IMG/VR virus record: IMGVR_UViG_3300045996_002184
Strand: one strand, 5' to 3'
Source of the DNA: a virus
Length of the DNA: 64,000 bases
The notes below the pieces were generated by a model that ran no database searches, was not told the origin of the DNA, and worked only from the letters and a program-made list of their open reading frames with translations. The translations under genes and the position numbers were made by a program. This document shows positions 1 through 20,452 of the stretch, piece by piece. Every line of letters starts with the position of its first letter. The stretch's first letter is position 1.

Positions 1-405
1 TACCAAGAAGATTGGTAATTACGAAGTGACCGAAATTTCCTCACTATTAATGAGTTTACGGATTTAACGCTTATTACCATTCTGGTCCCGGATAACGATT
101 TCTCGTACACCGGGACAATCTGCTTACTACCCGTTCCACCACTTTCATGGTTATAACTTGGTGCAGACGGAATGATTCACTCGTATCATTCTTCCGGACG
201 GATCTATAGACTCCAGAGCGATGAGACATCCTCTACTATTGTCCTCGTTGATTTTTCACAACTAAGTGGGCCCTTGTCCAGCTTTCCTGACGCCGGATTC
301 CTTGGTCCTGGATAGTGATCACTCACACACCAGGATCGATCTACCCTATGGTATTGCAACCACTTAACTTGGCCTGGGTATGCCCGCCGATTGAATACGG
401 CTTTA
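1..405 (-). ncRNA. Candidate large structured non-coding RNA (probably truncated by the window edge)
   Basis: No ORF of 60 aa or more. Many helices, e.g. 85-91/110-116 with an inner CGA-GAAA-UCG hairpin, 138-151 ACCAU-GAAA-GUGGU, 306-311/330-335 with GUGA-GUGA-UCAC, 13-19/73-79, 168-176/185-196. GNRA loops read on the minus strand, co-oriented with the upstream operon. Confidence 0.5.
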
Positions 406-410
406 ATAGA

Positions 411-1214
411 TCAGTTCATTTTCTGGTTGACTACCACTTCATCTGAAGCTTCGTCTCCCCAGGCTGTAACAATGCAGTAAAGTTCGACCCCTTTATATTG
501 CACCGGGGCCAACACAACAGGATCGGGAACTTCTCTAACGAGCATCTGATTCTTTACCTTGTACCCAACCTGTTCCATATCTTTCAATGGAGCTGCGATC
601 TGCAGCGTTACTCTGTCCTTGTGAATCTCGTTACTATGAAATCGTATTTGATAATGATCAGCAGAAGCTTCGGCAGCAGCAGCAGATTTTGCTGATTCCT
701 GTCGATCGTATTCATCTTTACTACACTCTCTGGAATTGGACCTACCGAAATCACCGCTAATATATTTTGTGTATCTGGTATTGAGTTCGTTTTCGTCCTG
801 AAAGAACTTATCGATCTCAGTCAGGTTCTTAACGGGTACGAATCCCTTGTACTGACTAACACCACCGATCACAAGATCATACTTGTGACAGATTCCAAGC
901 GCAGCCTCCGGAGTAATGAACTTGTAGCCAGGATACCTGGTACCGAAGTATTCAAGCGCTTCGGTAAGTTGCTGGAGTTCCAGTTTCTTGTTATGCGCGG
1001 TATCAGCCTGCTTCACTTCGGACGCATTTCCAAACCCATACTTTTTCAGGGCATGGATCTTGTTCTCGTTGATGACAATAGCTTCGGCAATGATCTCCCT
1101 GGCCTCTTTTACCAGGCGTTCACCGGTACTGTTAAACAGGTTATGGATCTCTTCCACCACTGCCGGGTACCCGGCATCTTTTGATACCGGTCTTTTCTTG
1201 AAGATGTTCAGCAT
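411..1214 (-). CDS. Hypothetical phage protein
   Basis: Long ORF. Start moved to MLNIFKK (1214), which follows an A-rich Bacteroidota-type leader; the upstream 12 codons run into the 1242-1355 RNA element. Confidence 0.75.
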   Translation of the reverse strand: MLNIFKKRPVSKDAGYPAVVEEIHNLFNSTGERLVKEAREIIAEAIVINENKIHALKKYGFGNASEVKQADTAHNKKLELQQLTEALEYFGTRYPGYKFITPEAALGICHKYDLVIGGVSQYKGFVPVKNLTEIDKFFQDENELNTRYTKYISGDFGRSNSRECSKDEYDRQESAKSAAAAEASADHYQIRFHSNEIHKDRVTLQIAAPLKDMEQVGYKVKNQMLVREVPDPVVLAPVQYKGVELYCIVTAWGDEASDEVVVNQKMN

Positions 1215-1241
1215 GACTATTGGGTTTTGTTGAGTTAAAGA

Positions 1242-1355
1242 TAAGCACACCTGACATTTATTATCCCTGCCCGATATTGAACGCTCAACCCGATGTTGAT
1301 CAAAGTGTTTTGCGTTTGTCGTTGACCGTCGGGCCTAGCGCGGTTGGTGTGCTTA
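1242..1355 (-). promoter_or_regulatory. Multi-branched RNA element in the 5' leader of 411-1214
   Basis: 10-bp closing stem TAAGCACACC/GGTGTGCTTA (1242-1251/1346-1355) with internal helices GCCCGA/TCGGGC, AACGC/GCGTT and TCAAC/GTTGA. Confidence 0.45.
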
Positions 1356-1361
1356 AAGTGG

Positions 1362-1817
1362 TTATTGCGGCAAACTCTTCATAACCTTGGCCATCTTGTC
1401 GATGAACATGGCTTGTTTGTCTTCCAGGCTCAGGAATTGCTCGGCCTCCTTCTGGAGTTCCAGCAGCGTCTCTTGAGTTTCCTTCTGCTCGATGATTGCT
1501 TTGCGCAGTTTGATGTCGTCAGTCCAATCCTCCAGCTTGAACCCGTTGTGGGTGAATACTGGATATTCCTGGATATCCAACGCGGTAGCCGCGTCATTGT
1601 AATCGTCATGCTTACGTTTGATCAGCGCATAGGCACGAAGCAGGTTTTCGATCTTGGTCTCCTGGTCTAGGTTCGTAAAGTTGTTACCGATGTTACATGA
1701 CGTCTTGTAGGCGCTATCGGTGATCTTCTTGAGCCGAGCCAGTTTATCCTTAATCGCTTTAAGGATTTCGGGTACTTGTGATGTTGGCGCTATGGCCGTG
1801 TTCTGTGATTTTGACAT
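1362..1817 (-). CDS. Hypothetical alpha-helical/coiled-coil protein
   Basis: 151-aa ORF co-oriented with its neighbours; K/E/L-rich helical composition. Confidence 0.75.
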   Translation of the reverse strand: MSKSQNTAIAPTSQVPEILKAIKDKLARLKKITDSAYKTSCNIGNNFTNLDQETKIENLLRAYALIKRKHDDYNDAATALDIQEYPVFTHNGFKLEDWTDDIKLRKAIIEQKETQETLLELQKEAEQFLSLEDKQAMFIDKMAKVMKSLPQ

Positions 1818-1827
1818 TTGCTTGGTT

Positions 1828-2130
1828 TTAGTAAGGTTGATAATTGTCGTTTACTATCGTGTTGGTAAGGAAATAAGAGGCATCGATAATCTTGTGGCCT
1901 GAGCCTACGTAAAAATGCTCTGGAGCATATCTTATTGTGTTAGGATAATATCCCAAGCTGTAACAGGTCTGTGATCCATACGTTTCCCAGTGATCCTCAG
2001 AAGTAGTGAGCTTATTTGTTGGGGATAATGACCTTAATAAATTACTAAGATCATTTGCTTCCTCCTGAGTATAACAATGAATTACAGTCTTGGTACCCAA
2101 CAACGATGTTAGTTTTTCAATACGGTTCAT
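1828..2130 (-). CDS. Small hypothetical protein with C-terminal tag VNDNYQPY (array gene 5)
   Basis: Start MNRIEK overlaps the stop of the upstream gene by 14 nt; TVIHCYTQEEA motif typical of small phage proteins. Confidence 0.75.
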   Translation of the reverse strand: MNRIEKLTSLLGTKTVIHCYTQEEANDLSNLLRSLSPTNKLTTSEDHWETYGSQTCYSLGYYPNTIRYAPEHFYVGSGHKIIDASYFLTNTIVNDNYQPY

Positions 2131-2434
2131 ATTCATCGTTTACTGGTGAGAAATTGGGTTTGAACGGTGTGTACTTTCTGTTCTGTAAACACCCATCCAG
2201 CCACACTCGTTCTCCGGGTGTTGTTTCGTAGACTTCTTTAATCCTATGTGTTAAGGTAAAAACACCGGAAGAGTATGTATTACCTGTGTCATTGTGACCG
2301 TAGAATTTAACTACTGATCCAAGATCATGGACTTTATCATCATGTATTTCATCGAAGATAATCCACCAGGTATTATCGTCATCCGTAATACTTATACGGT
2401 ACCATTGACCGCGGATCATTTCAGTAGGGTTCAT
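2117..2434 (-). CDS. Small hypothetical protein with C-terminal tag SPVNDEYEPY (array gene 4)
   Basis: Start MNPTEM by analogy with the other junctions; beta-rich N-terminus followed by ETTPGERVWLDGC helix. Confidence 0.75.
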   Translation of the reverse strand: MNPTEMIRGQWYRISITDDDNTWWIIFDEIHDDKVHDLGSVVKFYGHNDTGNTYSSGVFTLTHRIKEVYETTPGERVWLDGCLQNRKYTPFKPNFSPVNDEYEPY

Positions 2435-2765
2435 ACTCGTCATTTACAGGTGAGGAGATATCGTTGAAATCCACAAAAGAGTAAGGGTTAACATGTATGG
2501 GACATGGTACCGTATCATTAGCACGGATACACTCATTAAGCCATGCCTCTTCCATACAGGTAGCCGGTCTAAAACTGACGTGGTTCCCAGAACAACAATG
2601 TCCCACATTGAAAATACGCGGATTACCAGTAGAAATGAATGGAGTATTTTCACTTCCCGCTAAGTTGTTAATGTATTTGAATATGACCTCCATTTGCTTT
2701 CCGTGCCATTCCCAATAACCCACGTACACTCTCCCCGGTACCATGTCTTTTTCAGTAAGGTTCAT
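2421..2765 (-). CDS. Small hypothetical protein with C-terminal tag SPVNDEYEPY (array gene 3)
   Basis: 114-aa ORF; RPATCMEEAWLNECI motif similar to genes 2 and 4. Confidence 0.75.
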   Translation of the reverse strand: MNLTEKDMVPGRVYVGYWEWHGKQMEVIFKYINNLAGSENTPFISTGNPRIFNVGHCCSGNHVSFRPATCMEEAWLNECIRANDTVPCPIHVNPYSFVDFNDISSPVNDEYEPY

Positions 2766-3087
2766 AAGTATCGTTTATGGGTGAATTAATAGGTTGCAGT
2801 GCAGGGACAGGACCGTCAATCAAGTCATAAGCCAGGATCTCTTCGTTAGTAGCCTTACGGAGTTTCAGTTTGTTATTACAATCCTTAGAATCTTTAGTGC
2901 TCCAACCGTTACTGCTACTGCCACGAATATCCTTATGAATTCGGAAACAAAAAGTACTGCTGTCCTCTCTGAGTTTGTACACATGGTTAGCCGGGATAGT
3001 TTCCCAAAAATCGGTACCAGTACATGCTTGTAATAACACCACGTAGGTACCTGCCGGGAAATAATTCGGATCGTTAGTATGGTTCAT
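2752..3087 (-). CDS. Small hypothetical protein with C-terminal tag SPINDTYEPY (array gene 2)
   Basis: 111-aa ORF; LRKATNEEILAY motif. Confidence 0.75.
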   Translation of the reverse strand: MNHTNDPNYFPAGTYVVLLQACTGTDFWETIPANHVYKLREDSSTFCFRIHKDIRGSSSNGWSTKDSKDCNNKLKLRKATNEEILAYDLIDGPVPALQPINSPINDTYEPY

Positions 3088-3565
3088 ACGTGTCGTTTAT
3101 TAGGTTAGGTAATACAGCGGTATCAGGTCTGGTGGCTATTATCAGGTACTCTCCAGTGCGTAATACTTCATTCACTCTTTTCACCGTGAAATTTTGTGTG
3201 AAAAAAGAAGAACTTCGAAGAGTAACCCACTCCATGTGATCAGGAGAATTTGTTATGGGGTAATCTATTTTGAAGATTGTACTGGTTAGTTTGTTTTGTA
3301 TCTGCAGACCAATGAGTTGTCCTCGGGTAAAATCAGGCCACCTGATCTCGAATACAGGTGATACCGATTGCCACTTGCCAGAGTTGAGTCTGTTGAGGAT
3401 GTAACCTAAAGTACAGTTATCGTAGTACACCTCCTTACTCATGGCAGCACGGTACGCATTCGTAACCTGTCCATTGACCGGATTGATCTTGGTGATCGTA
3501 TACACGGTTGAGCCTCCGCGAGTAAACTGGAAGCCTTCTTTGATGTGTTCAGCTGAGTAATTCAT
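3074..3565 (-). CDS. Hypothetical protein, two tandem small beta-domains, C-terminal tag INDTYEPY (array gene 1)
   Basis: 163-aa ORF preceded by an AACCTTAAAC leader; the two halves share a YTITKI/IFKID...LNSGKW/LRTGEY pattern. Confidence 0.75.
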   Translation of the reverse strand: MNYSAEHIKEGFQFTRGGSTVYTITKINPVNGQVTNAYRAAMSKEVYYDNCTLGYILNRLNSGKWQSVSPVFEIRWPDFTRGQLIGLQIQNKLTSTIFKIDYPITNSPDHMEWVTLRSSSFFTQNFTVKRVNEVLRTGEYLIIATRPDTAVLPNLINDTYEPY

Positions 3566-3576
3566 GAGTTTAAGGT

Positions 3577-3861
3577 TTAGAGGGTGACTAATTTGAGTGC
3601 CAGGAAACGTATAGATTCCATGATCGCCTCGTTGTACTTGCCTTTGGGACAGTCTCCTTTTTCAAGACCATAGACATAAAGCAAACCAACTGATACACCC
3701 AAGACCTCTGCTATTATTTTCAGATTATCCGGGTGAGGCATTGACTGGTTGCTTTCTATGAGACTGATACCGGCCTGAGTCAAACCTACAGAAGACGCCA
3801 GTTCGTCCTGGGTCATGCCCACTGCTCTACGGACATCTTTGATTGCTTTTCCAAGGTTCAT
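3577..3861 (-). CDS. XRE/Cro-C1-type helix-turn-helix transcriptional regulator
   Basis: IKDVRRAVGMTQDELASSVGLTQAGISLIESNQSMP...LKIIAEVLGVSV is a canonical HTH_3 pattern. Confidence 0.9.
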   Translation of the reverse strand: MNLGKAIKDVRRAVGMTQDELASSVGLTQAGISLIESNQSMPHPDNLKIIAEVLGVSVGLLYVYGLEKGDCPKGKYNEAIMESIRFLALKLVTL

Positions 3862-3907
3862 ATAAATGGGTTTAAAGGTTAAGGTAAAAATTTGCCCCTA
3901 CGCACTC

Positions 3908-4146
3908 AGTTGTAATAGCCAATGTTTATTACAGCCCTCAGAGCTGTTGATTGGTTGTTTACCAGTCTATAATCACCAGACTGCACTATTACAACTGCTC
4001 ACCCTTGGGAGCTGATTAATTAGGACAGTATGTTTTATGTCCCTACCACATTATTAAGTGAATGTTACTACATAGCTGTAGTTTTATTAATCAGGTAGTT
4101 TCACATCTTAGTCTTTCTGTAAAGGTTATATTTCAAACCACCTAAG
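3908..4146 (-). other. Three tandem multi-branched stem-closed RNA/DNA structures
   Basis: CAGTTGTAATAG/CTATTACAACTG (3908-3997, 12 bp), CTGATTAAT/ATTAATCAG (4012-4094) and TCTTAG/CTAAGA (4107-4146), each enclosing 2-3 hairpins. Confidence 0.5.
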
Positions 4147-4177
4147 ACGTCTCTATTTCTACGTGAGTTGTGGTGCG

Positions 4178-4447
4178 TTAACAAGGATTTTTAGAACTGT
4201 AGCGACCACCGTTACTGTCTACACAGCGCATAGCCTCCTGTTCAGTTATTACGTGATCCTTTCTCCACCTGGTAGATGAGAGACTGGAACGACTGTTGGG
4301 TCCGTAGCTGTAAACGATATTGGTAAACTCACCAACACCGACAGATACGTGGCCATGACCAAAGGACTTACGGTAGCATTTGAGACCCAACTCGGGGTTG
4401 CCATCCCAATCTATGAATGTCCAGTCCGGGTATATTGTCTTATCCAT
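4178..4447 (-). CDS. Hypothetical protein
   Basis: 89-aa ORF with an AACCTTTGAATC leader. Confidence 0.65.
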   Translation of the reverse strand: MDKTIYPDWTFIDWDGNPELGLKCYRKSFGHGHVSVGVGEFTNIVYSYGPNSRSSLSSTRWRKDHVITEQEAMRCVDSNGGRYSSKNPC

Positions 4448-4502
4448 GATTCAAAGGTTTAAAGGTAATAGAAGCGTGACAGAGAAAACAACCCAGGTAA
4501 CA

Positions 4503-4649
4503 CATACCACCAGTCTAAGTAGTCAATAGTTGGTATGATACCGGTGAACGTGTAGTACTCAGTATCCCATCACCCCGTACAGATGTAGCAAACAGGGCCA
4601 GTGAGAGCCAGGTCAGGTACGGTTGTAACGGAAGTGAGTGGGATACTGA
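4503..4649 (-). other. Structured intergenic elements
   Basis: CATACCA/TGGTATG (4503-4536); TCAGTATCCCA/TGGGATACTGA (4559-4649, 11 bp) with nested CCGTAC/GTACGG. Confidence 0.45.
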
Positions 4650-4847
4650 AGCGCCACATGTTTGTATGAGAAAGGGGATTGAGGGATATAGTGAAGGGAA
4701 AATGGGTGTGAGAATGGGGAGTGAGGGTCCTGGCTCGCGCGAAGCGCGTCTCACATCTCAGTTCCAGTAGTTTCCCAGCTAATTGTACTGATTTGGTACG
4801 AAATCCAGCTATTTTAGCTGAAAAAGTTCGAAATCCGGCCGATTTGG

Positions 4848-5303
4848 CTATTTACCACTCTCCAACAGCGGCGTTGTGAAGTTGTTTCCCATCACCAGTA
4901 TGGTTACATTCACCCAGTATAACTCCTTCTTTCCCTTTACCTTACTGATGATTCTCTTCATCATGAGATCCAGCAATGCCTTATAGAATGTGGGTTTGGA
5001 TATGCCCACCTCCCTGGCTGTGAGTTGTATCATGGTAGCATCGAAATCAAGATGTAAGGCCATGTATACGAATACCTTGCAAGCGGCTGGCGATAGGTCA
5101 GCCAGCTTGTCCTTGTTCTGGTACATCTTGGTGAACATGCCTGATGAGTAGTTGTGCTCAATGGTGATGCGCGTACGCTGCTCGATTACCACTGACCTGC
5201 TTACTTCCCTCACCCGGTTATGCGCCCTTATTACGTCTTCGGTGAATGGATAATCCTCTGGCAATTGTGCCTTCATTGGAAGGAGCTTAGGGTTCACGTT
5301 CAT
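4848..5303 (-). CDS. RepL-like winged-HTH replication/maintenance protein
   Basis: LSPAACKVFVYMALHL...TAREVGISKPTFYKALLDLMMKRIISK...LYWVN pattern; RepL-like genes are known in crAss-like phages. Confidence 0.6.
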   Translation of the reverse strand: MNVNPKLLPMKAQLPEDYPFTEDVIRAHNRVREVSRSVVIEQRTRITIEHNYSSGMFTKMYQNKDKLADLSPAACKVFVYMALHLDFDATMIQLTAREVGISKPTFYKALLDLMMKRIISKVKGKKELYWVNVTILVMGNNFTTPLLESGK

Positions 5304-5581
5304 ACTCTGAAAGTAAATAAATTTGGTCTTTGGGCCAAATTTTAGGCCCTGAAAGTAAAAAATCTTTACCGCTAACCCTCACAACGAGCTGATAACCAAC
5401 ACCCCTCTATCTTAAGATAAGGGCGAACCGAGCCAACCACCTGACGCGGAGAGCTGGTGAGAGGCGCTGACCACCTGCCGGGGAGAGCCGACCCTTGTGG
5501 ACACCGGTATCAGAAGAGGAGCCGGCTCGTATAGGTTGCCAGGATCTCCCACTTCTGTTGGTACCGATGTGTTGTGGCTGA

Positions 5582-5710
5582 TCAGTTCAGCCTGTACTTG
5601 CCTGTGTAGCATCCCTTGTATGGTTTGCTGCTGCAAGGATTGTACGTCGTGCTACATGCGGTCATCGCAAGAGCGATAACGACGACGATAAGGATCAGGG
5701 ATCGTTTCAT
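5582..5710 (-). CDS. Small predicted lipoprotein (42 aa; not in the ORF track)
   Basis: MKRSLILIVVVIALAMTA-CSTTYNPCSSKPYKGCYTGKYRLN: basic N-terminus, hydrophobic core, lipobox Cys. Confidence 0.6.
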   Translation of the reverse strand: MKRSLILIVVVIALAMTACSTTYNPCSSKPYKGCYTGKYRLN

Positions 5711-5736
5711 GAGTGTATATTGAGTGGTTAGGAATA

Positions 5737-5769
5737 GCAAGAAAATCTCCCCGACTAATCAGGGAGATT
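5737..5769 (-). terminator. Intrinsic terminator after 5779-6375
   Basis: AATCTCCC/GGGAGATT stem (5744-5769) followed by TTTTCTT on the minus strand. Confidence 0.6.
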
Positions 5770-5778
5770 GTTGTGACG

Positions 5779-6375
5779 TTACGCGTCAACCTTAGCAGCA
5801 TCAGCCTCAGCTGGTACTTCTGCAGTTTCATCGTCCCCGAACACGCCTGTGAGTTCTTCGAGTGAGAACTCCGCTTTCTTAACCTCTTCAGGTTGTGCGA
5901 TAGCGATGGTCTTGGGATCGAGTGACAGCAGCGAGCCTTTCTCGGTTGTGATCTGCTCAACTGTTCCGATGATCTCGGTGTTGGCTGTGATCTGTTCTGC
6001 GACGGCGCTGGGAAGCAGCACACCTACGGAAACCTGCGTTTTGTTCAGGTAATCGTTGAAAAGCTCGGAAGCTTTTTCGGTGTCTCCCGCTTTCTCAGCG
6101 GCAAGGGCGTCTACCAGGATCTGGCGCGTACGAGGATTCTTCATCGCAACCTCTGAGTTCGCGCGAAGATTGAAGATCTTCTTGCGGAGCACTGTACCAG
6201 GCTCTGATACTGATTGTACCAGTTCGCCTGCAGCATCGGTTACGTCTATGACGTTTCCGTTGCCCTGCACCAGTAATCTGATCCTCTTGCCAACGTGTGA
6301 CAATGTGACCAATGCTCTTTGTTTCATGATTGCGATGACACCTTGTTGTGTCATTGTGCGAGTGTTCTGTGACAT
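5779..6375 (-). CDS. Hypothetical protein with acidic tail (possible nucleic-acid-binding protein)
   Basis: Start moved to MSQNTR after the A-rich leader TCATAAAAACTCAAACAGA; beta-rich body and acidic C-terminus. Confidence 0.7.
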   Translation of the reverse strand: MSQNTRTMTQQGVIAIMKQRALVTLSHVGKRIRLLVQGNGNVIDVTDAAGELVQSVSEPGTVLRKKIFNLRANSEVAMKNPRTRQILVDALAAEKAGDTEKASELFNDYLNKTQVSVGVLLPSAVAEQITANTEIIGTVEQITTEKGSLLSLDPKTIAIAQPEEVKKAEFSLEELTGVFGDDETAEVPAEADAAKVDA

Positions 6376-6440
6376 TCTGTTTGAGTTTTTATGAGTTGCA
6401 ACCAAAATAGTTCCAGCACATTTCGAGTACTGCTCGAACA

Positions 6441-6597
6441 AGTGCCGGGTGTTTCGATTGCAAAACTTAGCCGGGGACTATCGTGGGAAGTGGTCACACA
6501 TCTCCGCAACTCACACAAAAATTTTTGATATATAAAAATTTTTCTACCTTCATTCCGCAGTAATGTCGCTGCATAACCAATTAAACAATTAAGCAAA
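6441..6597. promoter_or_regulatory. Divergent strand-switch region with AAAAATTTTT-GATATAT-AAAAATTTTT
   Basis: All real genes to the left are minus-strand and to the right plus-strand; two 10-bp palindromes at 6517-6526 and 6534-6543. Confidence 0.5.
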
Positions 6598-6921: not shown

Positions 6922-7128
6922 ATGACTTTCCAGGAAACAGCAATGCGGGTGATGGCTGAAGAGCTGAGACTCTATCATGAGTACGTGTGGGCCTCTGATC
7001 ACTGGTGGATGTTGGTTGCTCTCCGGGTAGTGGATACCGAAGAACTGAGAGAAGCCCTGCAGCTTCACAAAGATTCCCACGTAAGAAACATGATCCAGTT
7101 CAGGGAGATGTTTGCTTCACATAATTAA
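6922..7128 (+). CDS. Hypothetical protein
   Basis: 68-aa ORF with an A-rich leader. Confidence 0.55.
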   Translation: MTFQETAMRVMAEELRLYHEYVWASDHWWMLVALRVVDTEELREALQLHKDSHVRNMIQFREMFASHN

Positions 7129-7163
7129 GATGCAGCCTTGTGTGATACCGGTGTGATCGACCG

Positions 7164-7183
7164 AGTTAACTTATAAGTTAACT
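7164..7183. repeat. Perfect 20-bp palindrome AGTTAACTTATAAGTTAACT
   Basis: Directly visible; intergenic. Confidence 0.85.
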
Positions 7184-7431
7184 TACGGCATCTCATAAGC
7201 AGTTAGTTTTGGTTCTCCCCGGGGTTTTTACTTCGGGGATTATTGTCTATATTGCTCCCACGTATTATTGCTTTCATAGGTCGAGCCTCGTTTCTACGGG
7301 GCTTTCCCGTTGTTAATAACCCAGGTCTCTCGCACAACTTATACACACATATAACCGTTAACAAAATCTTTTGGTTGGTAATAGCTGGTTAACATATCTT
7401 TAGATCGTCAACAACCTTAAACCCTTATTTT

Positions 7432-8016
7432 ATGCCCATCTCCGAACAACAGTTCCTGGAGTCGGCTCAGCTGCTTAACGTACCGGTCGCTGCTATCAAG
7501 GCAGTGGCTGAAGTTGAGAGCGCCGGCGCAGGTTTCCTCTCCACAGGAGAGCCCAAGATTCTCTTCGAACCTCACATCTGGTGGAAAGAACTTCGCAGAG
7601 CCGGGCTTGATCCCGCGCAAATACTCGCTGCAAATCCTGACATCTCTGACATCCTCTACCAAAAGTGGGGAAGCAAACCTTATGGCGGTATCATGGTACA
7701 ACACAAAAGGCTAGCTCGTGCCGTAGATGTTAACCGGGAGACTGCACTGATGAGCGCCTCTTACGGTAAGTTCCAGATCTGTGGTTTCAACTGGCAGCTT
7801 TGCGGTTGCAGGGACCTGCAGGAGTTCATCAACAAGATGTACCGGGACGAAGATGCCCAGCTGGAGCTGTTCTGTAATTACATCAAGCGGACTCACCTGG
7901 ATGATGAACTGCGTGAGGGAGACTGGGCGGCCTTCGCACTGGCATACAACGGACCTTCTTACCGTAAGAATGCCTACGACACCAAACTCAGGATGGCAAA
8001 CGCCCGCTATTCATGA
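7432..8016 (+). CDS. Endolysin, N-acetylmuramidase (DUF3380-type)
   Basis: AIKAVAEVES...PKILFEPH...SASYGKFQICGFNW...DWAAFALAYNGPSY..NAYDTKL motifs. Confidence 0.9.
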   Translation: MPISEQQFLESAQLLNVPVAAIKAVAEVESAGAGFLSTGEPKILFEPHIWWKELRRAGLDPAQILAANPDISDILYQKWGSKPYGGIMVQHKRLARAVDVNRETALMSASYGKFQICGFNWQLCGCRDLQEFINKMYRDEDAQLELFCNYIKRTHLDDELREGDWAAFALAYNGPSYRKNAYDTKLRMANARYS

Positions 8017-8579
8017 TACACGTTATTCATACAAGTGACAGGGTTGACCGGTATGAACTTTTGCAGAAGGAAGTGCATACTCACGCTCTCAAAATCAACC
8101 TCTGGCAGGGAGAGAGAGCTACCCCGGTATCAAAAGGGGTGGCCCTTTCCCATAAAAAGATCGTGCAGTGGGCGCTTGACACCGGGTTGCCGGAAGTGTG
8201 TATCGCTGAAAACGACTTTCACCTTGTCGGTACCGGTGCCTGGGAACATTTCCTCTCTCAGAAGCCTGCTGAATACGACCTCTACCTCGCTTCTATGTAT
8301 GTGAAGTGGCCGGTGGGAGATACCTCAGACGTCAAAGACTTCCGCGGTATGACGCTTTACTTCGTTCACTCACGTTTTTACTCAAGGTTTCTTTCTGTAC
8401 CCGATCAAGGGCACATAGATTTTCAATTATCACGCTTAACCGATAGAAAATATGTCGTCTGTTACCCTTTTGCTGCGATCCAGCATGAAACCTACTCTGA
8501 TAATGCTAAGACGACGCACAGAAACCAGGACTACCTCGCAGACAAATTACTTTATGACCCATTCATTCAAACCCAATGA
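8013..8579 (+). CDS. Glycosyltransferase, GT25-like
   Basis: RVDRYE...KGVALSHKKI...VCIAENDF matches the GT25 R..R / G..LSH / LEDD pattern. Confidence 0.65.
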   Translation: MIHVIHTSDRVDRYELLQKEVHTHALKINLWQGERATPVSKGVALSHKKIVQWALDTGLPEVCIAENDFHLVGTGAWEHFLSQKPAEYDLYLASMYVKWPVGDTSDVKDFRGMTLYFVHSRFYSRFLSVPDQGHIDFQLSRLTDRKYVVCYPFAAIQHETYSDNAKTTHRNQDYLADKLLYDPFIQTQ

Positions 8580-9857: not shown

Positions 9858-10464
9858 TGAAGAGGAGATCATCCTCAAATACTTTTCATCCAATTCATAC
9901 GAGAAGGGTACTGTACTCTCCATCGGGGAGAATGACGGTAAAACCTTAAGCAATTCACTGGCCCTGATCGAACGGGGCTGGAGCGGTATCCTGGTAGAAC
10001 CGGACCCGGGAGTATTCGCTAAATGCGTGGCCCTGCACGGTGACAACAGGAACGTACAATGTGTCAACGCGGCCGTAGGACCGGTGAAAGGAAAACAGAA
10101 GTTTTGGAGCAGTGGCTCGCTGCTTGGTACCGGTGACATGTCGCTGGTCTCTACGCTTGATCCCGAAGAACTAAAAAGGTGGGAGGCTGCCCGCATTCCT
10201 TTCCGCGAGATGGAGGTGGATGTTATTACAACCGAAGACCTGATCGACATGCTGCCTGCGCACCAGTGTTTTGATTTCATATCCATTGATGCGGAAGGAT
10301 ACGACTTTCTTATCCTCACCCAGATCGATCTTGACCGTGTGGGTTGTAATCTTATATGCGTAGAGTGGAACGGCAAGAATTTCGAGCAGTATGATGATTA
10401 TATAACAGGATTCGGCTTCAGGCTGATCCATTCAAACCAGGAAAATTTGATCTATGGCAGATAA
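9841..10464 (+). CDS. FkbM-family methyltransferase
   Basis: VLSIGENDGKTLSNS...WSGILVEP, DFISIDAEGYDFLIL, LICVEWN. Confidence 0.85.
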   Translation: MYSQNNEEEIILKYFSSNSYEKGTVLSIGENDGKTLSNSLALIERGWSGILVEPDPGVFAKCVALHGDNRNVQCVNAAVGPVKGKQKFWSSGSLLGTGDMSLVSTLDPEELKRWEAARIPFREMEVDVITTEDLIDMLPAHQCFDFISIDAEGYDFLILTQIDLDRVGCNLICVEWNGKNFEQYDDYITGFGFRLIHSNQENLIYGR

Positions 10465-11212
10465 ATGCATTATCTCTTACGCCTCTTCCGGCCGGGAGAA
10501 TTATAACAAAGCGCAGCTTAACATGATCCGTTCCTGCAAGAATGCGGGTTGGGACGGGGATTATTTAATTCGTTCCCTCGACGGTTACGTCGATGAATAT
10601 CTCGGCGTAAAGATTCACCAGGGTAAACCCGTCAGTCGAGTGTATGGTAACAAGGAAATGAGTTACCAGTGCTACAACCATAACGAGGTACCATACCAGT
10701 TCAAGCCTTACCTGATAGCAGAAGCACTGGAGCTGGGTTACCGCAAGATCATCTGGTGTGACTCGACTGTCAGAATGGTAAAGGACCCGATGACGCTGTT
10801 CAGAAATCACAAGAGTGATTATGGTGTAATCGGTTTCGATAACCTTGGGCACCCGTTGCACCAGTACCTGCACGACTACGCGTTGGAAAGACTGGAGATA
10901 TCAGAAGAAGATTTACCCAATGTAAAACAGATCATGGCTTGTGTCATGCTCTTCGATTTTACTCGCCCGGGTACGTTTCGGATATTCGAGGAGTGGATGA
11001 AGATGTCCCATGATGGAGTATCGTTTCAGAACTACGGTTCTAAGCGTGAAGCTTTCAAAGTACATCGCCACGACCAGGCATGCATGAGTGGTCTTCTTCA
11101 CAAGTATGGCGTACCTTTATTACCGTATGGCAGACTGGTGTATCCACCCCATGACCAGGAGCCATTCGATTTTGGTACCGATATTTATTTTGTAAACAAA
11201 GGAGTGAACTAA
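10454..11212 (+). CDS. Putative nucleotide-diphospho-sugar transferase
   Basis: FKPYLIAEAL...IIWCDST and HRHDQACMS motifs typical of GT-A-like enzymes. Confidence 0.6.
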   Translation: MADKCIISYASSGRENYNKAQLNMIRSCKNAGWDGDYLIRSLDGYVDEYLGVKIHQGKPVSRVYGNKEMSYQCYNHNEVPYQFKPYLIAEALELGYRKIIWCDSTVRMVKDPMTLFRNHKSDYGVIGFDNLGHPLHQYLHDYALERLEISEEDLPNVKQIMACVMLFDFTRPGTFRIFEEWMKMSHDGVSFQNYGSKREAFKVHRHDQACMSGLLHKYGVPLLPYGRLVYPPHDQEPFDFGTDIYFVNKGVN

Positions 11213-12900: not shown

Positions 12901-13173
12901 ATGTCAGAATTAACACGCGGCCAACAGGTCATGTCAGTAAGTTTCAATCCCGGACAAAGGGATGATGTAGGTACTATCAAACTCGCTTTCGCCAACACCT
13001 TCGACGTCATTGCGTACTGGGCTGATGAAGCGGTAGCTGCAGCTGTACAGAAGGAAAAGGAGACTGGTGTTTCCACGGCCGGGCAGGTAAGTGATATCCG
13101 CAGGCTGGAAGCAATCTCCAAGACTAACCTGGAGACAGCGCAGATGTACGCCGTAAAAGCAGTGACCCGCTAA
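12901..13173 (+). CDS. Small helical-hairpin protein, possibly Acb2/Tad1-hairpin-like
   Basis: SFNPG...IK.AFA...RLEAISKTNLETAQMYAVKA pattern; family assignment from memory. Confidence 0.4.
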   Translation: MSELTRGQQVMSVSFNPGQRDDVGTIKLAFANTFDVIAYWADEAVAAAVQKEKETGVSTAGQVSDIRRLEAISKTNLETAQMYAVKAVTR

Positions 13174-15281
13174 TGGCATTTCACTCACTCGTAAATACCG
13201 GTTACTTTTCCGAGGCTGCAAAAGGCTGGGTGAAAAACGGGGGACGTTACACAGACGCCCCCGTCGGATCCCGTGACTACCACCAGTACTGGGAAGAGCA
13301 GGAGAAGCGCTGTCTCTACGGCTATAAAGTAGGCGATCTTTGGATACCGGGGAGATTCTACTTCTATCTGAACTTCTTTCCCATGTCGCGGGTACCTGAG
13401 GCAACCCTCATGCGCGCGCTGGAAGAAAGAAGGAGCGGGCGCAAAGGAACGATATCGGTATCCACGGCTGAAAAGACGATCGATTTTCCCAAGTTCTGGG
13501 AGATAGACTATGAGTGGTGGAACTTCAAACACATTGCCTGGTACGGTGGAAAGTTCATGGGTATAGAGTCCGAAGGTGGTAAACACATGTGTTGCCTCAA
13601 AACGCGTGGTGCAGGTTTCTCCTACAAGGAAGCTGCCGACGGTATCTACAACTATAACTTCATTGATGGCAGTAAGTCATACTTCTTCGCAGGAGCTGAG
13701 CCCTACCTCGTGGGTGACGCAATCATGGATAAGGTACAAGGTGGCCTTGATTGGCTGAACCAGTACTGTACTCCTTGGTATAAGAACCGCCAGAAGAAGT
13801 ACACGATCACTCACCAGAGAGCATCTTACGTCGATGATTTCAACCGGGAGCGTGGTAGCTTCTCGGAGATCATCGCCCAGATCGTAGACAAGCCTTCGAA
13901 GACCAGGGGTAAGAGAGGACGCAAGGCTTCCTTCGAGGAAGGTGGATCCTTCCCACACATGGAAGATGCGCTTGAAGTATGTCTTGGTTCCATGCGCGAA
14001 GGCTCGGTGTACGTAGGCCAGGTAACGGTTTTCGGTACCGGTGGTGAGCAGGGACCTGGTATCCAGGGACTGGAGAACGTATTCAACTCCCCTGAGAGCT
14101 GGGATATGCTGGCGTTCCCTAACATCTATGACGAGGGCATGCAACACACATCCTGCGGTTACTTCGTTCCATGCTACCGGGCAGACTCCTGGTTTATGGA
14201 CGAGAACGGTAACGTGGATGTGGCGGGTGCTATCAAATCAGATGAGAAGGAACGGCAGAAGAAAAAGAAGAGCGGTAAACCAAAGGATCTTGATCGCAGG
14301 AAAGCGGAGTACCCGCGCAACCCCTCGGAAGCACTGCAGCGTCTTACGCTCAACGGGTTCAATATCGCAGAGATCGACGCCCAGATAAACCGCATCAGGA
14401 GTGACAAGGCAATCCAGGGGCTGCTACGTCACGGTGAATTCGTGACTTCTGAGGCCGGCATAGGCGGGTACGACTTTGATATCAAACCCAAACACGTTGC
14501 ACGGCCGATCGAGCACTTTCCGCATAACAATGGCGATGACCTGGAAGGTTGCGTTACGATCGTTCAGCGCCCTTACCAGGATCAGAAAGGTAACGTACCT
14601 GCAGGTATGTATATCATTACGTTCGACGGTATCGCAAAAGAAGAGTCCGAGGATAAGACCTCACTGTTCTCTTTCAAGGTATGGAAACAAGAGAACTTTG
14701 TTGACTCGTCTTATACCGGTCTCCCGGTAGCCTGGTGCGCCGGCAGGCCCCGGAGCCTGAATAAGAACTTCGAACGTCTTTTCGCCGCGGCTGAGTATTA
14801 CAACGCGGAGATACAAGGTGAGATCGCAGGTGGGGGACAGATGGTGGTGAACTATGCCCGTACGCACCGTAAACTCCACAGGCTCAAAAAAGAGCCGGAC
14901 ATGACTCACAATAAGGAACTGGCTTCTAAGTCAGCCGGTAACTCGATGCTCATGAACATGCCTACCGATCGTAAGCTGGTAGGTATCTCATACCTGGAAG
15001 ACTGGCACGTAGAACCCCGGGGAGTGGACGAGAAAGGTAACGTGATACTTACTATTCACCGGATATATGATATCGCATGGCTACTGGAGATGAAGAAGTT
15101 TGATCCCTCGAAGCTGAAGGGTAACTATGACCGTATATCTGACGCGCTGATCGCAATGTTCGAACTGAAAGAACGGATCGCTCAGCTGATTGGTCACAGG
15201 AGAGCCTCCAAGAAGATACTCGGCGGACGTCCGCTCTTCGGCGCTTCCGGTCCGGTGCAGGGTACTACTAGCGCGTATTGA
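13173..15281 (+). CDS. terL: Terminase large subunit
   Basis: crAss-type YYFYLNF, LKTRGAGFSY (Walker A region), FEEGG (Walker B), FGTGG, and a C-terminal nuclease with D..DR.SDA. Confidence 0.92.
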   Translation: MAFHSLVNTGYFSEAAKGWVKNGGRYTDAPVGSRDYHQYWEEQEKRCLYGYKVGDLWIPGRFYFYLNFFPMSRVPEATLMRALEERRSGRKGTISVSTAEKTIDFPKFWEIDYEWWNFKHIAWYGGKFMGIESEGGKHMCCLKTRGAGFSYKEAADGIYNYNFIDGSKSYFFAGAEPYLVGDAIMDKVQGGLDWLNQYCTPWYKNRQKKYTITHQRASYVDDFNRERGSFSEIIAQIVDKPSKTRGKRGRKASFEEGGSFPHMEDALEVCLGSMREGSVYVGQVTVFGTGGEQGPGIQGLENVFNSPESWDMLAFPNIYDEGMQHTSCGYFVPCYRADSWFMDENGNVDVAGAIKSDEKERQKKKKSGKPKDLDRRKAEYPRNPSEALQRLTLNGFNIAEIDAQINRIRSDKAIQGLLRHGEFVTSEAGIGGYDFDIKPKHVARPIEHFPHNNGDDLEGCVTIVQRPYQDQKGNVPAGMYIITFDGIAKEESEDKTSLFSFKVWKQENFVDSSYTGLPVAWCAGRPRSLNKNFERLFAAAEYYNAEIQGEIAGGGQMVVNYARTHRKLHRLKKEPDMTHNKELASKSAGNSMLMNMPTDRKLVGISYLEDWHVEPRGVDEKGNVILTIHRIYDIAWLLEMKKFDPSKLKGNYDRISDALIAMFELKERIAQLIGHRRASKKILGGRPLFGASGPVQGTTSAY

Positions 15282-18937: not shown

Positions 18938-20452
18938 ATGTCAAGCACACTTTTGCCTGCTATGAAGTTCCAGGTGCAGGAGCAGATCTTCGATTCGAAG
19001 ACAATGCTCGACGAAACGAACTTCTATCACCAGCGCCAGGGAGCACCTTCAGAGTTGACAAAGAAGTTGACTTACATCCTCGGCAACTACACCAAAAATT
19101 ACCCGATCTCTACCATGACCCTCGGCGGTTCTGGCTTCGGTAACAAAGGTGGCGCCGTCGAGTTGGACGACGTTCAATTCACTTACCCGGTTATGGGCCA
19201 GGACGACAAGGTTGCCATCACGTATTCTTCTGAATACTCCGGCAGCGACAAGCCTGGTATCGGCCACGGTAAGTTCTTCATCACATTTTCTGACAACTGG
19301 ATCAAAAGGTTCTATACGATAGAATCCGAAGATGGTACCCAGGTGTACGTACACTCCGACGGTGAGCCTGTTGCGGGCGGTTTCCGTTACGAAGTACAGC
19401 TCGCCCAGTCCCAGGCTTCTGATTACTGCGCACTGGACCAGTTGGAAGCAAACGTCAAATGGTGTGAACTCTTTACCTCAGTTGCTGAATCTGAGTCTCG
19501 CTCAACCGAGTCGAAGATGGTAATGCCGGGTATGTTCAAAAACCAGATGGGCTTCATGAGAGCTGGCTTTAGCTGGGCTGGTAACTCTGCCAATAAGGTA
19601 ATGCGTATCTCCGTTCAAACCGACAAGGGCTCAACAGACGTGTGGCTTGACTACGCACTGTGGCAGTTCGAGAAGCGCTGGATGGAAGAGTGCGAGCACC
19701 TTTACTGGTACAGCCGTTATAACAGGAAGGCCGATGGTACGATCGCGCTGAAGGACATGTTGACCGGAAAGGTAATTCCTCAAGGTTCAGGTATCCTGGA
19801 GCAAATCACCAATAAGTCTACCTACTCCGCCCTTTCTTTCAACAATCTCGTCAACAAGGTAGGTGATGCACTCTTCGGCCAGGCTGATACCGGTGACATG
19901 ACCATCACGCTTATGACCGGTACCGGTGGTATCCGTGAATTCGACCGTGCTGCGCGCGAGGCTGGTATCCAGAAGATCGGGCCTTTGGGAGCTGGCGATA
20001 TCGCATCTAAGTTCGTAACCGGTACAGGTCACAACCTGGCACTCGGCGGATACTTCGATACCTTCTACCACGTAGACGGTTACACCATCAAGGTGAAGAA
20101 GAACCCGATCTTCGATCTGGGCCGCGTTGCCAAGAAGAGTCCTATCCATCCTGAGACTGGTCTTCCTTTGGAATCATACCGCATGGTATTCCTGGATGAC
20201 TCAGACGTGGACGGTTCACCTAACATCAAGCACGTAGCTCAAAAGGGCCGTAGCTTCATGGACGGTGTTGTACCGGGTCTTACGCCAATGCCTAAGTCAC
20301 TTCAGATCCTGCTGGGTCAGACCGGCGGAACTGCTTCGAAAATACTTTCTACCGTACAGGACAAGAGTGAATACACAAGGTTCAAATCAGCGGGTATCCA
20401 GATCCTGCGTGCGAACAGGTGTTTCGATCTTCAGTGTACTGCAGGTCAGTAA
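18938..20452 (+). CDS. Major capsid protein
   Basis: 504 aa; GIGH..F.I.F.DNW, LMTGTGG.REF and DLGRVAKKSPIHPETGLPLESYRMVFLD match the crAss-type MCP. Confidence 0.9.
   Translation: MSSTLLPAMKFQVQEQIFDSKTMLDETNFYHQRQGAPSELTKKLTYILGNYTKNYPISTMTLGGSGFGNKGGAVELDDVQFTYPVMGQDDKVAITYSSEYSGSDKPGIGHGKFFITFSDNWIKRFYTIESEDGTQVYVHSDGEPVAGGFRYEVQLAQSQASDYCALDQLEANVKWCELFTSVAESESRSTESKMVMPGMFKNQMGFMRAGFSWAGNSANKVMRISVQTDKGSTDVWLDYALWQFEKRWMEECEHLYWYSRYNRKADGTIALKDMLTGKVIPQGSGILEQITNKSTYSALSFNNLVNKVGDALFGQADTGDMTITLMTGTGGIREFDRAAREAGIQKIGPLGAGDIASKFVTGTGHNLALGGYFDTFYHVDGYTIKVKKNPIFDLGRVAKKSPIHPETGLPLESYRMVFLDDSDVDGSPNIKHVAQKGRSFMDGVVPGLTPMPKSLQILLGQTGGTASKILSTVQDKSEYTRFKSAGIQILRANRCFDLQCTAGQ

What the first reader, a model, noticed from the sequence alone, without database searches (positions are those of the whole stretch)
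1..405. Over 400 nt of ORF-free, GNRA-rich structured RNA at the end of the leftward operon
Seen on the minus strand: hairpins closed by GAAA (CGA-GAAA-UCG, ACCAU-GAAA-GUGGU) and GUGA loops, nested long-range helices (UGGUAAU/AUUACCA; GUCCCGG/CCGGGAC; UCCUGG/CCAGGA; CGGAA..AUGAU/AUCAU-UCCG; AGAG-GAUG/CAUC-CUCU) and no coding capacity. I do not recognise tRNA, tmRNA, RNase P or group I/II intron signatures. Large ornate phage ncRNAs (GOLLD, ROOL) are precedents; this could be a new class and probably continues past position 1.
Basis: partly seen in the sequence, partly recalled or inferred. Interest (0 to 1): 0.75.

Follow-up and report, generated by a model that had tools for sequence, protein, structure and literature searches.

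The report
Modular hairpin RNA tail of phage operon
The gene-free 410 bases at the end of this soil crAss-like phage's leftward operon are real non-coding, hairpin-dense sequence, but the evidence points to a string of separate RNA hairpins rather than one giant ornate RNA; two of them are copies of a conserved, uncatalogued 30-base hairpin that other Bacteroidota phages keep beside their tmRNA and tRNA genes.

Summary
Observation confirmed. It folds better than shuffles (z about -4). No Rfam family, tRNA or tmRNA matches.

Interpretation partly supported. I found no evidence for one large GOLLD/ROOL-like RNA. The closest complete relative (G001, 95.6 kb) has a 705-nt ORF-free structured stretch in the same neighbourhood. 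It shares only two short modules with the window, and in permuted order. The excess folding lies in 1-200; 201-400 is unremarkable.

One module is well supported: a 30-nt hairpin I call R1, at window 306-335 and 85-116 on the minus strand. It has a UCCYGG/CCRGGA base, a U-rich 3x3 internal loop, a 4-bp free-sequence stem and a GNRA cap. I found 13 copies in 7 phage or prophage lineages, all on the transcribed strand and in ORF-free stretches. On 14 aligned CM matches (these 13 plus one probable chance match), 8 of 10 pairs show compensatory changes.

In five lineages R1 lies within about 2 kb of a tmRNA, tRNA or tRNA-like gene. The likeliest role is a protein-recognised processing, protection or read-through signal in a phage stable-RNA locus.

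The RNA may continue past position 1; I could not fetch that DNA. This scan noted similar modular RNA cassettes in other phages (unchecked AI notes), but none with this sequence.

The parts
411..1214 (-). Last protein gene of the leftward operon (267 aa from the ATG at 1214; the ORF is open from the GTG at 1250). Function unknown. The non-coding stretch starts directly after its stop codon.
   Evidence: ORF; 199 homologues, none with Pfam domains. In relatives L001, L003, L005 and L007 the homologue is followed directly by other genes.
386..401 (-). Small hairpin GCCG-UAUUCAAU-CGGC
   Evidence: MFE structure. No comparative support.
346..375 (-). Module M1. Its core GUUAAGUGGUUKCAAUACCAYAG is shared with phage G001. 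It holds a local hairpin GUGGU-UKCAAU-ACCAY, whose closing G-U pair in the window is G-C in G001.
   Evidence: window 375-320 matches G001 10508-10454, E 6e-5. Pattern scans of IMG/VR and JGI metagenomes found only G001. A 3-mismatch search of all fetched loci added only one match, inside a gene in L007.
306..335 (-). R1 hairpin, copy a: UCCUGG-UGU-GUGA-GUGA-UCAC-UAU-CCAGGA, followed by CCAAGG
   Evidence: CM R1 scores 51.1 bits. The apical 18 nt are identical to the prophage copy in L278, while the base pair U-A is flipped to A-U.
277..297 (-). Hairpin UCCGGC-GUCAGGAAA-GCUGGA. By eye, phage G003 has a hairpin (CCGAG/CUCGG) at the same place after its R1 copy.
   Evidence: The comparison rests on two sequences only.
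214..262 (-). Two short local hairpins: GUUG/CAAC with an A-rich loop, and UAGAG-GAUG/CAUC-CUCUG
   Evidence: No comparative support, and this block does not fold better than shuffles.
168..196 (-). Hairpin GAAUGAU-ACGAGUGA-AUCAUUC, flanked by CGG/CCG
   Evidence: It lies in the strongly structured block 1-200.
118..168 (-). Extended hairpin closed by GUCUGC/GCAGAU and tipped by ACCAU-GAAA-GUGGU (151-138). G001 has a short CUGC-CUCG-GCAG hairpin at the corresponding place in front of its R1 copy.
85..116 (-). R1 hairpin, copy b: GUCCCGG-UGU-ACGA-GAAA-UCGU-UAU-CCGGGAC
   Evidence: CM R1 scores 47.9 bits. Window 125-86 matches G001 10929-10889.
13..79 (-). Long irregular hairpin closed by the 7-bp stem UGGUAAU/AUUACCA and followed by the U-rich AUCUUCUU. 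It may be the 3' end of this unit or a branched terminator. The window ends 12 nt later.
   Evidence: In G001's second non-coding region an R1 copy is likewise followed by a long-range closing stem and a U run.

Best explanation
**What it is.** Window 1-410 is the non-coding tail of the leftward early/accessory operon of a soil crAss-like phage. It reads best as a string of about ten separately folding stem-loops on the minus strand, not as one large tertiary-folded RNA.

**The conserved part.** Two of the stem-loops are copies of a hairpin I call R1. R1 has:
- a sequence-conserved 6-7 bp base, UCCYGG/CCRGGA
- a U-rich 3x3 internal loop
- a 4-bp stem in which only the pairing is conserved
- a GNRA cap
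- a 3' tail whose second base is always C

**Where else it occurs.** R1 recurs in ORF-free stretches of six other Bacteroidota phage or prophage lineages, always on the transcribed strand. In five of those lineages it lies beside a tmRNA, tRNA or tRNA-like gene.

**Proposed mechanism (inferred).** The operon transcript runs through the stop codon at 411 into this array. R1 is a docking hairpin for a trans-acting protein, from phage or host. That protein directs cutting or protection of stable-RNA precursors, or lets the polymerase read through the internal terminators that follow these loci.

**Shown versus inferred.** Shown here: absence of coding capacity, excess folding of 1-200, the R1 fold with covariation, its strand, its distribution and its neighbours. 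Inferred: transcription, protein binding and the actual function.
For: **Non-coding and structured.**

**The R1 fold.**
- Five copies from two phages: 100% of cells paired, 5 of 10 pairs changed on both sides, 0 of 500 shuffles as good.
- Fourteen CM matches from seven lineages (one a probable chance match): 94.8% paired, 8 of 10 pairs changed on both sides, covariation score 0.541 against 0.156 +/- 0.031 for shuffles. Slid controls score at most 0.12. That alignment was fitted to the model.
- Window copy a and the L278 copy have identical tips but a flipped U-A/A-U base pair. L288 has the same tip on a different base, CCCUCGG/CCGAGGG.

**Strand.**
- All 13 copies lie on the strand of the flanking genes or RNA genes.
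- GNRA caps read as such only on that strand.
- G-U pairs occur in R1 copies (AGUA/UAUU, GUGA/UCGC).
- The minus-strand MFE is 14.6 kcal/mol lower than the plus-strand MFE.

**Specific to non-coding loci.** Across about 860 kb of related phage DNA, the strong R1 hits fall only in ORF-free gaps: window 1-410, G001 10393-11097, G001 7890-8262 and G003 48422-49033.

**Neighbours.**
- G003: R1 is about 130 nt upstream of a canonical tmRNA.
- L288: a tmRNA lies 1.7 kb upstream, and tRNA-Ser and tRNA-Phe lie downstream.
- L171, L278 and L279: R1 follows or sits between tRNA-like genes in prophage early regions.

**Terminators.** Read directly from the sequence, internal terminators with U runs follow the R1 loci in G001 (both regions), G003, L278 and L279, with further same-strand genes behind them.

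**Modularity.** Outside R1 and M1 nothing aligns between lineages.

**Precedent.** In crAss-like phage phi14:2, two long early intergenic regions are transcribed above most genes and stay abundant (10.1101/2020.03.07.982082). ARAGORN calls a tmRNA inside one of them.
Against:
- No binding protein was identified. The only protein shared near R1 loci is a DUF6011 protein in L288, G001 and G003. It was not found in the 64-kb window, and nothing ties it to RNA.
- Both strands fold about equally well against shuffles, and most stems are pure Watson-Crick, so a DNA-level hairpin role is not excluded.
- No tRNA or tmRNA gene lies next to R1 in the visible part of the window or directly beside it in G001.
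- In the window R1 lies at the end of an operon, not near its start, which does not favour a lambda-nut-like antitermination role.
- The helices other than R1 rest on energy prediction from one sequence.
Confidence: 0.5

Rival explanations
1. One large ornate non-coding RNA of a new class. The whole stretch plus sequence beyond position 1 folds into a single tertiary structure. The GNRA-capped arms, including R1, dock into receptors within the RNA or between copies, as in GOLLD or ROOL assemblies.
For: - The 410 nt as a whole score z -3.95.
- There are four GNRA-type loops.
- The closest relative also has a large (705 nt) ORF-free structured stretch, z -3.4.
- phi14:2 makes abundant long non-coding RNAs.
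- The window is cut at position 1, so part of the RNA may be missing.
Against: - Only two short modules are shared with G001, in permuted order.
- Only R1 is shared with five further lineages.
- No long-range helix has comparative support.
- Block 201-400 folds no better than shuffles.
- R1 sits in non-homologous contexts, which fits a trans-recognised module better than a part of one fixed architecture.
- Rfam found nothing, even at E<=10.
Confidence: 0.15
2. R1 is specifically a processive antitermination element, working like lambda nut boxB with an N-like protein or like HK022 put RNA. The nascent hairpin modifies the elongating polymerase so that it reads through the terminators of the embedded RNA genes into downstream early genes.
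For: - R1 is a GNRA-capped hairpin on the nascent strand of early operons.
- In prophage L171 it lies about 2 kb downstream of a divergent CI/LexA-like repressor gene.
- In G001, G003, L278 and L279, intrinsic terminators follow R1 within a few hundred nt, with same-strand genes beyond them.
Against: - In the window both copies lie at the end of the operon.
- There are several copies per locus.
- The loop and tip vary (GAAA, GUGA, GAGA) while the base is conserved. That is the opposite of boxB, where the loop is what the protein reads.
- I neither looked for nor identified a boxA-like partner or an N-like protein.
- crAss-like early genes may be transcribed by the virion polymerase, whose termination rules are unknown.
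Confidence: 0.15
3. A DNA-level element. The hairpins act as cruciforms or single-strand hairpins at a replication origin, a packaging site or a recombination site, or they mark a physical genome end.
For: - Both strands fold equally far above shuffles.
- The stems are mostly perfect Watson-Crick inverted repeats.
- The stretch lies at the first base of the window.
Against: - The R1 orientation always follows transcription (13 of 13 copies).
- G-U pairs in several copies would be A-C mismatches on the other strand.
- GNRA caps occur on one strand only.
- GC content is 46%, like the genome, with no AT-rich tract or iterons.
- The homologous regions are internal in G001 (10.4-11.1 kb) and G003 (48.4-49.0 kb); IMG/VR lists direct terminal repeats at the ends of the G003 record.
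Confidence: 0.07
4. Mostly non-functional spacer. It is a decayed remnant of former RNA genes or inserted DNA, in which only the R1 copies, and perhaps M1, are under selection. The other hairpins are incidental or merely stabilise the 3' end of the mRNA.
For: - Sequence turns over very fast outside R1 and M1.
- Block 201-400 is not unusually structured.
- Relatives that have the neighbouring gene lack any such gap.
Against: - Block 1-200 is the strongest folding outlier in 32 kb.
- Phage genomes are compact and rarely keep 400 nt of junk.
- G001 keeps two such regions and G003 one.
Confidence: 0.13

Closest known systems
Abundant early long non-coding RNAs of crAss-like phage phi14:2 (g004-g005 and g005-g006 junctions; Drobysheva et al. 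preprint, 10.1101/2020.03.07.982082)
   Same: Both are long ORF-free stretches inside the early gene block of a crAss-like phage, on the transcribed strand. In phi14:2 they are shown to be highly transcribed and persistent, with function stated as unknown. ARAGORN places a tmRNA in one of them, which parallels the R1-tmRNA adjacency in G003 and L288.
   Different: There is no sequence similarity and no R1 hit in the phi14:2 region. Transcription of the window stretch has not been shown.
Stable RNAs of unknown function encoded within the phage T4 tRNA gene cluster (species 1 and 2; from my own knowledge, not checked here)
   Same: These are small structured non-coding RNAs that sit with phage tRNA genes and are cut from a common precursor. 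That is the arrangement I infer for R1-bearing loci beside tmRNA, tRNA and tRNA-like genes.
   Different: There is no homology. Processing of the present RNA is inferred, not shown, and no tRNA is visible next to it within the window.
Lambda nut site boxB hairpin / HK022 put RNA (processive antitermination; established knowledge)
   Same: Both are GNRA-type capped hairpins on nascent early phage transcripts upstream of internal terminators, recognised as RNA.
   Different: boxB is a 5-bp stem whose pentaloop is what the protein reads. R1 is about 30 nt, with a conserved base and internal loop and a variable tip. R1 occurs in several copies per locus, and in the window it lies at the operon end. 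I identified no boxA or N-like protein.
GOLLD and ROOL large ornate phage RNAs (Rfam)
   Same: All are large ORF-free structured regions in phage genomes, often near tRNA genes.
   Different: cmscan gave no match at gathering score or at E<=10. There is no conserved multi-domain architecture; only a 30-nt module is conserved.

Membership tests
GOLLD / ROOL / any other Rfam 15 family | Match to the family covariance model (sequence plus structure) at or near its gathering score | tested here: not met
   Rfam gathering gave 0 matches over 64 kb. At E<=10 on 1-700 there were only mir-569 and a Tetrahymena snoRNA at E about 6. The homologous G001 stretch gave only alpha_tmRNA at 14 bits, E 0.17.
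tmRNA | tRNA-like domain (acceptor stem with G3-U70, T arm), a tag reading frame, and pseudoknots | tested here: not met
   ARAGORN found none in the window or in G001. Rfam tmRNA models gave no hit at E<=10. As a positive control, the same tools find the G003 tmRNA at 72 bits. A 3' part beyond position 1 cannot be excluded.
tRNA / tRNA-like gene | Cloverleaf with a T arm GGUUCRANYCC and an acceptor stem | tested here: not met
   ARAGORN and the Rfam tRNA model found nothing in 1-410. The same Rfam model finds tRNA-like genes beside R1 in L171.
Group I / group II intron | Match to the catalytic core models (P3-P9 for group I; domains V-VI for group II) | tested here: not met
   No Rfam hit at E<=10. 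R1 has a symmetric 3x3 loop, not the 2-nt bulge and AGC triad of domain V (direct reading of the sequence).
CRISPR repeat mimic (RNA anti-CRISPR, solitary repeat unit) | The same hairpin sequence occurs as regularly spaced repeats in a host CRISPR array | tested here: inconclusive
The stricter pattern gave 22 single matches. The inner stem differs between copies within one phage, which does not suit mimicry of one repeat.
Intrinsic (Rho-independent) terminator | GC-rich hairpin directly followed by a U run | tested here: not met
   The terminator scan found none on the minus strand in 1-1500. Both window R1 copies are followed by CCAAGG or CCAGAA, not by U runs. Only the last hairpin (13-79) is followed by the U-rich AUCUUCUU.
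R1 hairpin motif (defined here) | 6-7 bp base UCCYGG/CCRGGA, 3x3 U-rich internal loop, 4-bp stem, GNRA cap, C at the second base after the stem, on the transcribed strand of an ORF-free stretch | tested here: met
   Window 300-341 scores 51.1 bits and 80-121 scores 47.9 bits (these two sequences were in the seed). Independent copies not in the seed: L279 43.7, L278 42.2 and 34.7, L171 39.9, L288 36.9, G003 27.2 bits.

The most novel reading that the evidence does not exclude
R1 is the RNA handle of an undescribed trans-acting system shared by lytic crAss-like phages and temperate phages of Chitinophagaceae and other Bacteroidota. A protein that reads the conserved UCCCGG/CCGGGA base and U-U loop would mark phage 'stable-RNA islands' (tmRNA, tRNA look-alikes and lineage-specific structured RNAs such as window 1-410). 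It would control their maturation, or the polymerase's passage through them. The variable RNAs hung between R1 copies would then be exchangeable cargo with functions of their own, for example decoys against host defences.
Probability: 0.3. Interest if true: 0.65.

Novelty: new variant of a known kind. Interest (0 to 1): 0.45.

Why it matters
crAss-like phages are among the most abundant phages known, and the one model studied (phi14:2) makes very abundant early non-coding RNAs whose role is unknown. This finding gives a concrete, testable handle on such RNAs. R1 is a small covarying hairpin, absent from Rfam, that links non-coding stretches of lytic crAss-like phages to the tmRNA and tRNA-like islands of temperate Bacteroidota phages.

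One R1-bearing prophage sits in a cultured isolate, Danxiaibacter flavus SYSU DXS3180, so experiments are possible without culturing the soil phage.

The stretch is not shown to be a GOLLD-class giant RNA, so it should not be counted as one.

Tried and rejected
**Extending the contig to the left**
- No whole genome is held for the window.
- The window's own 94,084-bp contig could not be fetched through its proteins. Only a 1.6-kb Logan contig (L153) appeared, and it ends before the stretch.
- Exact-pattern scans of IMG/VR and JGI metagenomes do not contain the window.

**Synteny through the upstream gene**
- The gene has 199 homologues, but in four long contigs it is followed directly by genes, and nothing there resembles 1-410.

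**Pseudogene reading**
- tblastx against relatives and against the rest of the window found nothing. Codon usage is negative.

**tmRNA or tRNA reading of the window RNA**
- Rejected by ARAGORN and Rfam, with positive controls.

**DNA similarity to GenBank phages**
- None.

**Chance or mis-specified pattern matches**
- L065 is a chance match inside a Flavobacterium membrane-protein gene.
- L120 lies inside a coding region of a high-GC contig.
- One IMG/VR scan was wasted on a mis-spaced pattern.
- Weaker CM hits in Terriglobia, Chloroflexota, Bacteriovorax, Victivallis and Streptomyces contigs have unpaired inner stems or high GC. I did not count them.

**Terminal-repeat or genome-end reading**
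- The homologous regions are internal in G001 and G003.

**Partner protein by co-occurrence**
- Only a DUF6011 protein is shared by three of the R1 lineages. It is absent from the window and has no known RNA link.

**Extended R1-plus-downstream family**
- Downstream sequences are conserved only between the two closely related prophages L278 and L279.

**Folding background**
- The z-score scan of window 32001-64000 timed out, as did the first 400-nt version.

Full report
**1. What the window is**

PHROG matches to the large terminase (13173-15281), portal (15323-17743) and major head protein (18938-20452), plus a 3,949-aa virion protein, mark a crAss-like phage. Its own contig is 94,084 bp. Genes at 411-6441 run leftward, so the finding lies directly after the stop codon (411) of the last visible leftward gene. 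That gene is a 267-aa protein of unknown function.

**2.

- No ORF in 1-410 exceeds 51 aa.
- A codon-usage score trained on 38 genes of the window is -0.15 for the best of six frames, with at least 3 stops in every frame. Coding windows give 0.226 +/- 0.077 and never fall below 0.011.
- The minus strand folds to -132.3 kcal/mol against -109.0 +/- 5.9 for dinucleotide shuffles, z -3.95. The plus strand gives z -4.04.
- I scanned 320 strand-windows of 200 nt over window 1-32000 as a background (mean z -0.49, sd 1.18). Block 1-200 is the top outlier on both strands (-5.2 and -4.45). Block 201-400 is ordinary (-0.72 and -0.86). The scan of the second half of the window timed out.
- Rfam 15 gives nothing at gathering thresholds over the whole window and nothing meaningful at E<=10 over 1-700. 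ARAGORN finds no tRNA or tmRNA.

**3. Looking for relatives**

- The stretch has no match in GenBank phages and none in this scan's index.
- The upstream gene has 199 homologues. In four long contigs it is followed directly by other genes, and nothing there resembles 1-410.
- Through the major head protein I reached 34 IMG/VR loci and fetched four complete relatives.
- Only the closest relative shows similarity. This is G001 = IMGVR_UViG_3300015050_001142 = Ga0181338_1000002, 95,585 bp, with 77% head-protein identity.
- G001 has a 705-nt ORF-free stretch (10393-11097, minus strand), z -3.4. It lies directly after the homologue of window gene 1362-1817.
- Two local matches link the two stretches. 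Window 375-320 matches G001 10508-10454 (E 6e-5; module M1, core GUUAAGUGGUUKCAAUACCAYAG). Window 125-86 matches G001 10929-10889 (E 0.008).
- Their order is reversed. M1 comes first in the window and last in G001, where a hairpin with a U7 run and the next gene follow it.
- Nothing else aligns between the two stretches.

**4. The R1 hairpin**

The second match, window 306-335, and three places in G001 all have the same design:
- a 6-7 bp base, UCCYGG/CCRGGA
- a 3x3 U-rich internal loop
- a 4-bp stem of free sequence
- a GNRA cap

The five copies pair in 100% of cells, and 5 of 10 pairs change on both sides. No shuffle out of 500 reaches these values.

A covariance model of them (R1) found strong hits only in ORF-free gaps across about 860 kb of related phage DNA. 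It added a copy in G003, an 87-kb crAss-like genome for which IMG/VR reports direct terminal repeats.

Pattern scans and the model then found copies in four more lineages:
- a prophage of a Deminuibacter MAG (L171, 39.9 bits)
- a prophage of the isolate Danxiaibacter flavus (L279, 43.7 bits)
- a prophage of a Bacteroidota MAG (L278, 42.2 and 34.7 bits)
- a 40-kb IMG/VR contig (L288, 36.9 and 22.3 bits)

On the model-fitted alignment of 14 matches (one a probable false hit), 94.8% of cells pair. Eight of 10 pairs change on both sides, and the covariation score is 0.541 against 0.156 +/- 0.031 for shuffles. Partner-slid controls give 0.12 or less.

Two comparisons are clear even without statistics:
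- Window copy a and the L278 copy have identical tips (UGUGUGAGUGAUCACUAU) on bases that differ by a U-A to A-U flip.
- L288 carries nearly the same tip on a different base, CCCUCGG/CCGAGGG.

All 13 copies lie on the strand of the flanking genes. Several contain G-U pairs that would be A-C mismatches on the other strand. I therefore treat R1 as an RNA element.

**5. What sits next to R1**

- G003: R1 lies about 130 nt upstream of a canonical tmRNA (ARAGORN; Rfam RF00023 at 72 bits).
- L288: a tmRNA lies 1.7 kb upstream, and tRNA-Ser and tRNA-Phe lie downstream on the same strand.
- L171: R1 lies between two genes that the Rfam tRNA model scores at 39 and 48 bits. The locus is in a prophage early region beside a CI/LexA-like repressor and AAA_24, PD-(D/E)XK-FtsK and DUF1376 genes.
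- L279 and L278: R1 follows two class-II-tRNA-like sequences, identified by direct reading.
- G001 (both regions), G003, L278 and L279: a hairpin with a U run follows the locus, and same-strand genes continue behind it.
- Outside R1 the flanking RNA is not conserved between lineages.

A scan of species genomes showed only single matches, never arrays.

**6. Interpretation**

The data fit a modular reading. The window stretch is a string of independently folding hairpins in which R1 (two copies) and M1 are conserved modules and the rest is lineage specific.

The pattern of conservation in R1 is what one expects of a docking site for a trans-acting protein:
- a base conserved in sequence
- a tip conserved only in pairing
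- recurrence in non-homologous surroundings
- a fixed strand

Its company (tmRNA, tRNA and tRNA look-alikes) and the terminators behind these loci suggest a role in maturation or protection of phage stable RNAs, or in read-through. I cannot separate those roles with the present tools.

The precedent is phi14:2, a cultured crAss-like phage. Two long early intergenic regions there are transcribed above most genes and persist through infection, 'functions ... remain to be determined' (10.1101/2020.03.07.982082). ARAGORN calls a tmRNA inside one of them.

The single-giant-RNA reading is not excluded, because the window is cut at position 1. But it has no comparative support: modules are permuted between the two closest phages, and no long-range helix is conserved. 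A DNA-level role is unlikely given the strand rule and the G-U pairs.

**7. Limits**

- I could not read beyond position 1 or obtain any expression data.
- Helices other than R1 rest on single-sequence energy prediction. The hairpin at 277-297 has a by-eye counterpart in G003 only.
- The 14-sequence covariation count uses a model-fitted alignment, which leans toward the structure. The 5-sequence MAFFT count does not have that bias.
- Earlier AI notes of this scan describe similar 'modular RNA cassettes' and insertion-bearing tRNA-Leu look-alikes in other phages. I did not check them and do not use them as evidence.

Noticed in passing
window 3862-4177: This other ORF-free spacer of the accessory region is 66% identical over 318 nt (E 8e-24) to an ORF-free stretch of another complete crAss-like relative, G002 = IMGVR_UViG_3300042526_000097, at 1735-2494. 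It is a second conserved non-coding region and much better conserved than 1-410.
   Followed up: no
L066 (Cellulophaga phage phi14:2, NC_021806) 4031-4500, + strand: ARAGORN calls a 470-nt tmRNA (tag GSSVQKLAMVA*) inside the g005-g006 intergenic region. The Drobysheva preprint reports that region as an abundant long non-coding RNA of unknown function. Rfam gathering thresholds miss it.
   Followed up: partly
L053 8487-8830 (-) = G003; L288 4304-4721 (-): Two uncultured phages carry full tmRNA genes. G003 is an 87-kb crAss-like genome; L288 is from a 40-kb IMG/VR contig of unknown type. The G003 tmRNA is canonical (RF00023, 72 bits; tag ends ...KAIAA*). L288 also has tRNA-Phe and tRNA-Ser.
   Followed up: partly
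L171 352-453 and 996-1076 (+); L279 about 7063-7203 and 7313-7412 (+); matching genes in L278: Prophages of Chitinophagaceae/Bacteroidota carry class-II-tRNA-like genes with tRNA-Leu-type D arms and good T arms. They have 20-85 extra nucleotides in the anticodon/variable region. ARAGORN does not call them; the Rfam tRNA model gives 39-48 bits for the two in L171.
   Followed up: partly
L288 4754-5254 (-); L043 9608-10048 (-); G003 about 50883-51104 (-): A small protein with a C-terminal DUF6011 motif (CxxC...GIGPxC) lies within about 0.4-2 kb of the R1/tmRNA loci in three lineages. None was found in the 64-kb window.
   Followed up: partly
L153 (Logan contig SRR35179664_6429182, 1,569 bp): This contig encodes window proteins 1362-1817 and 1831-2130 with identical sequence, so the same phage is present in that public run. 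The contig stops before the non-coding stretch.
   Followed up: partly
L043 5490-5562 (-); L044 14281-14354 (-) (phage G001): ARAGORN calls a tRNA with anticodon UCA (labelled SeC; it reads UGA) and a tRNA-Cys with anticodon ACA in the closest relative. The window itself has no tRNA in its 64 kb.
   Followed up: no
L043 7890-8262 (-) (phage G001): G001 has a second ORF-free structured region with its own R1 copy (8041-8010), several GNRA-capped hairpins, and a long-range closing stem followed by a U run.
   Followed up: partly
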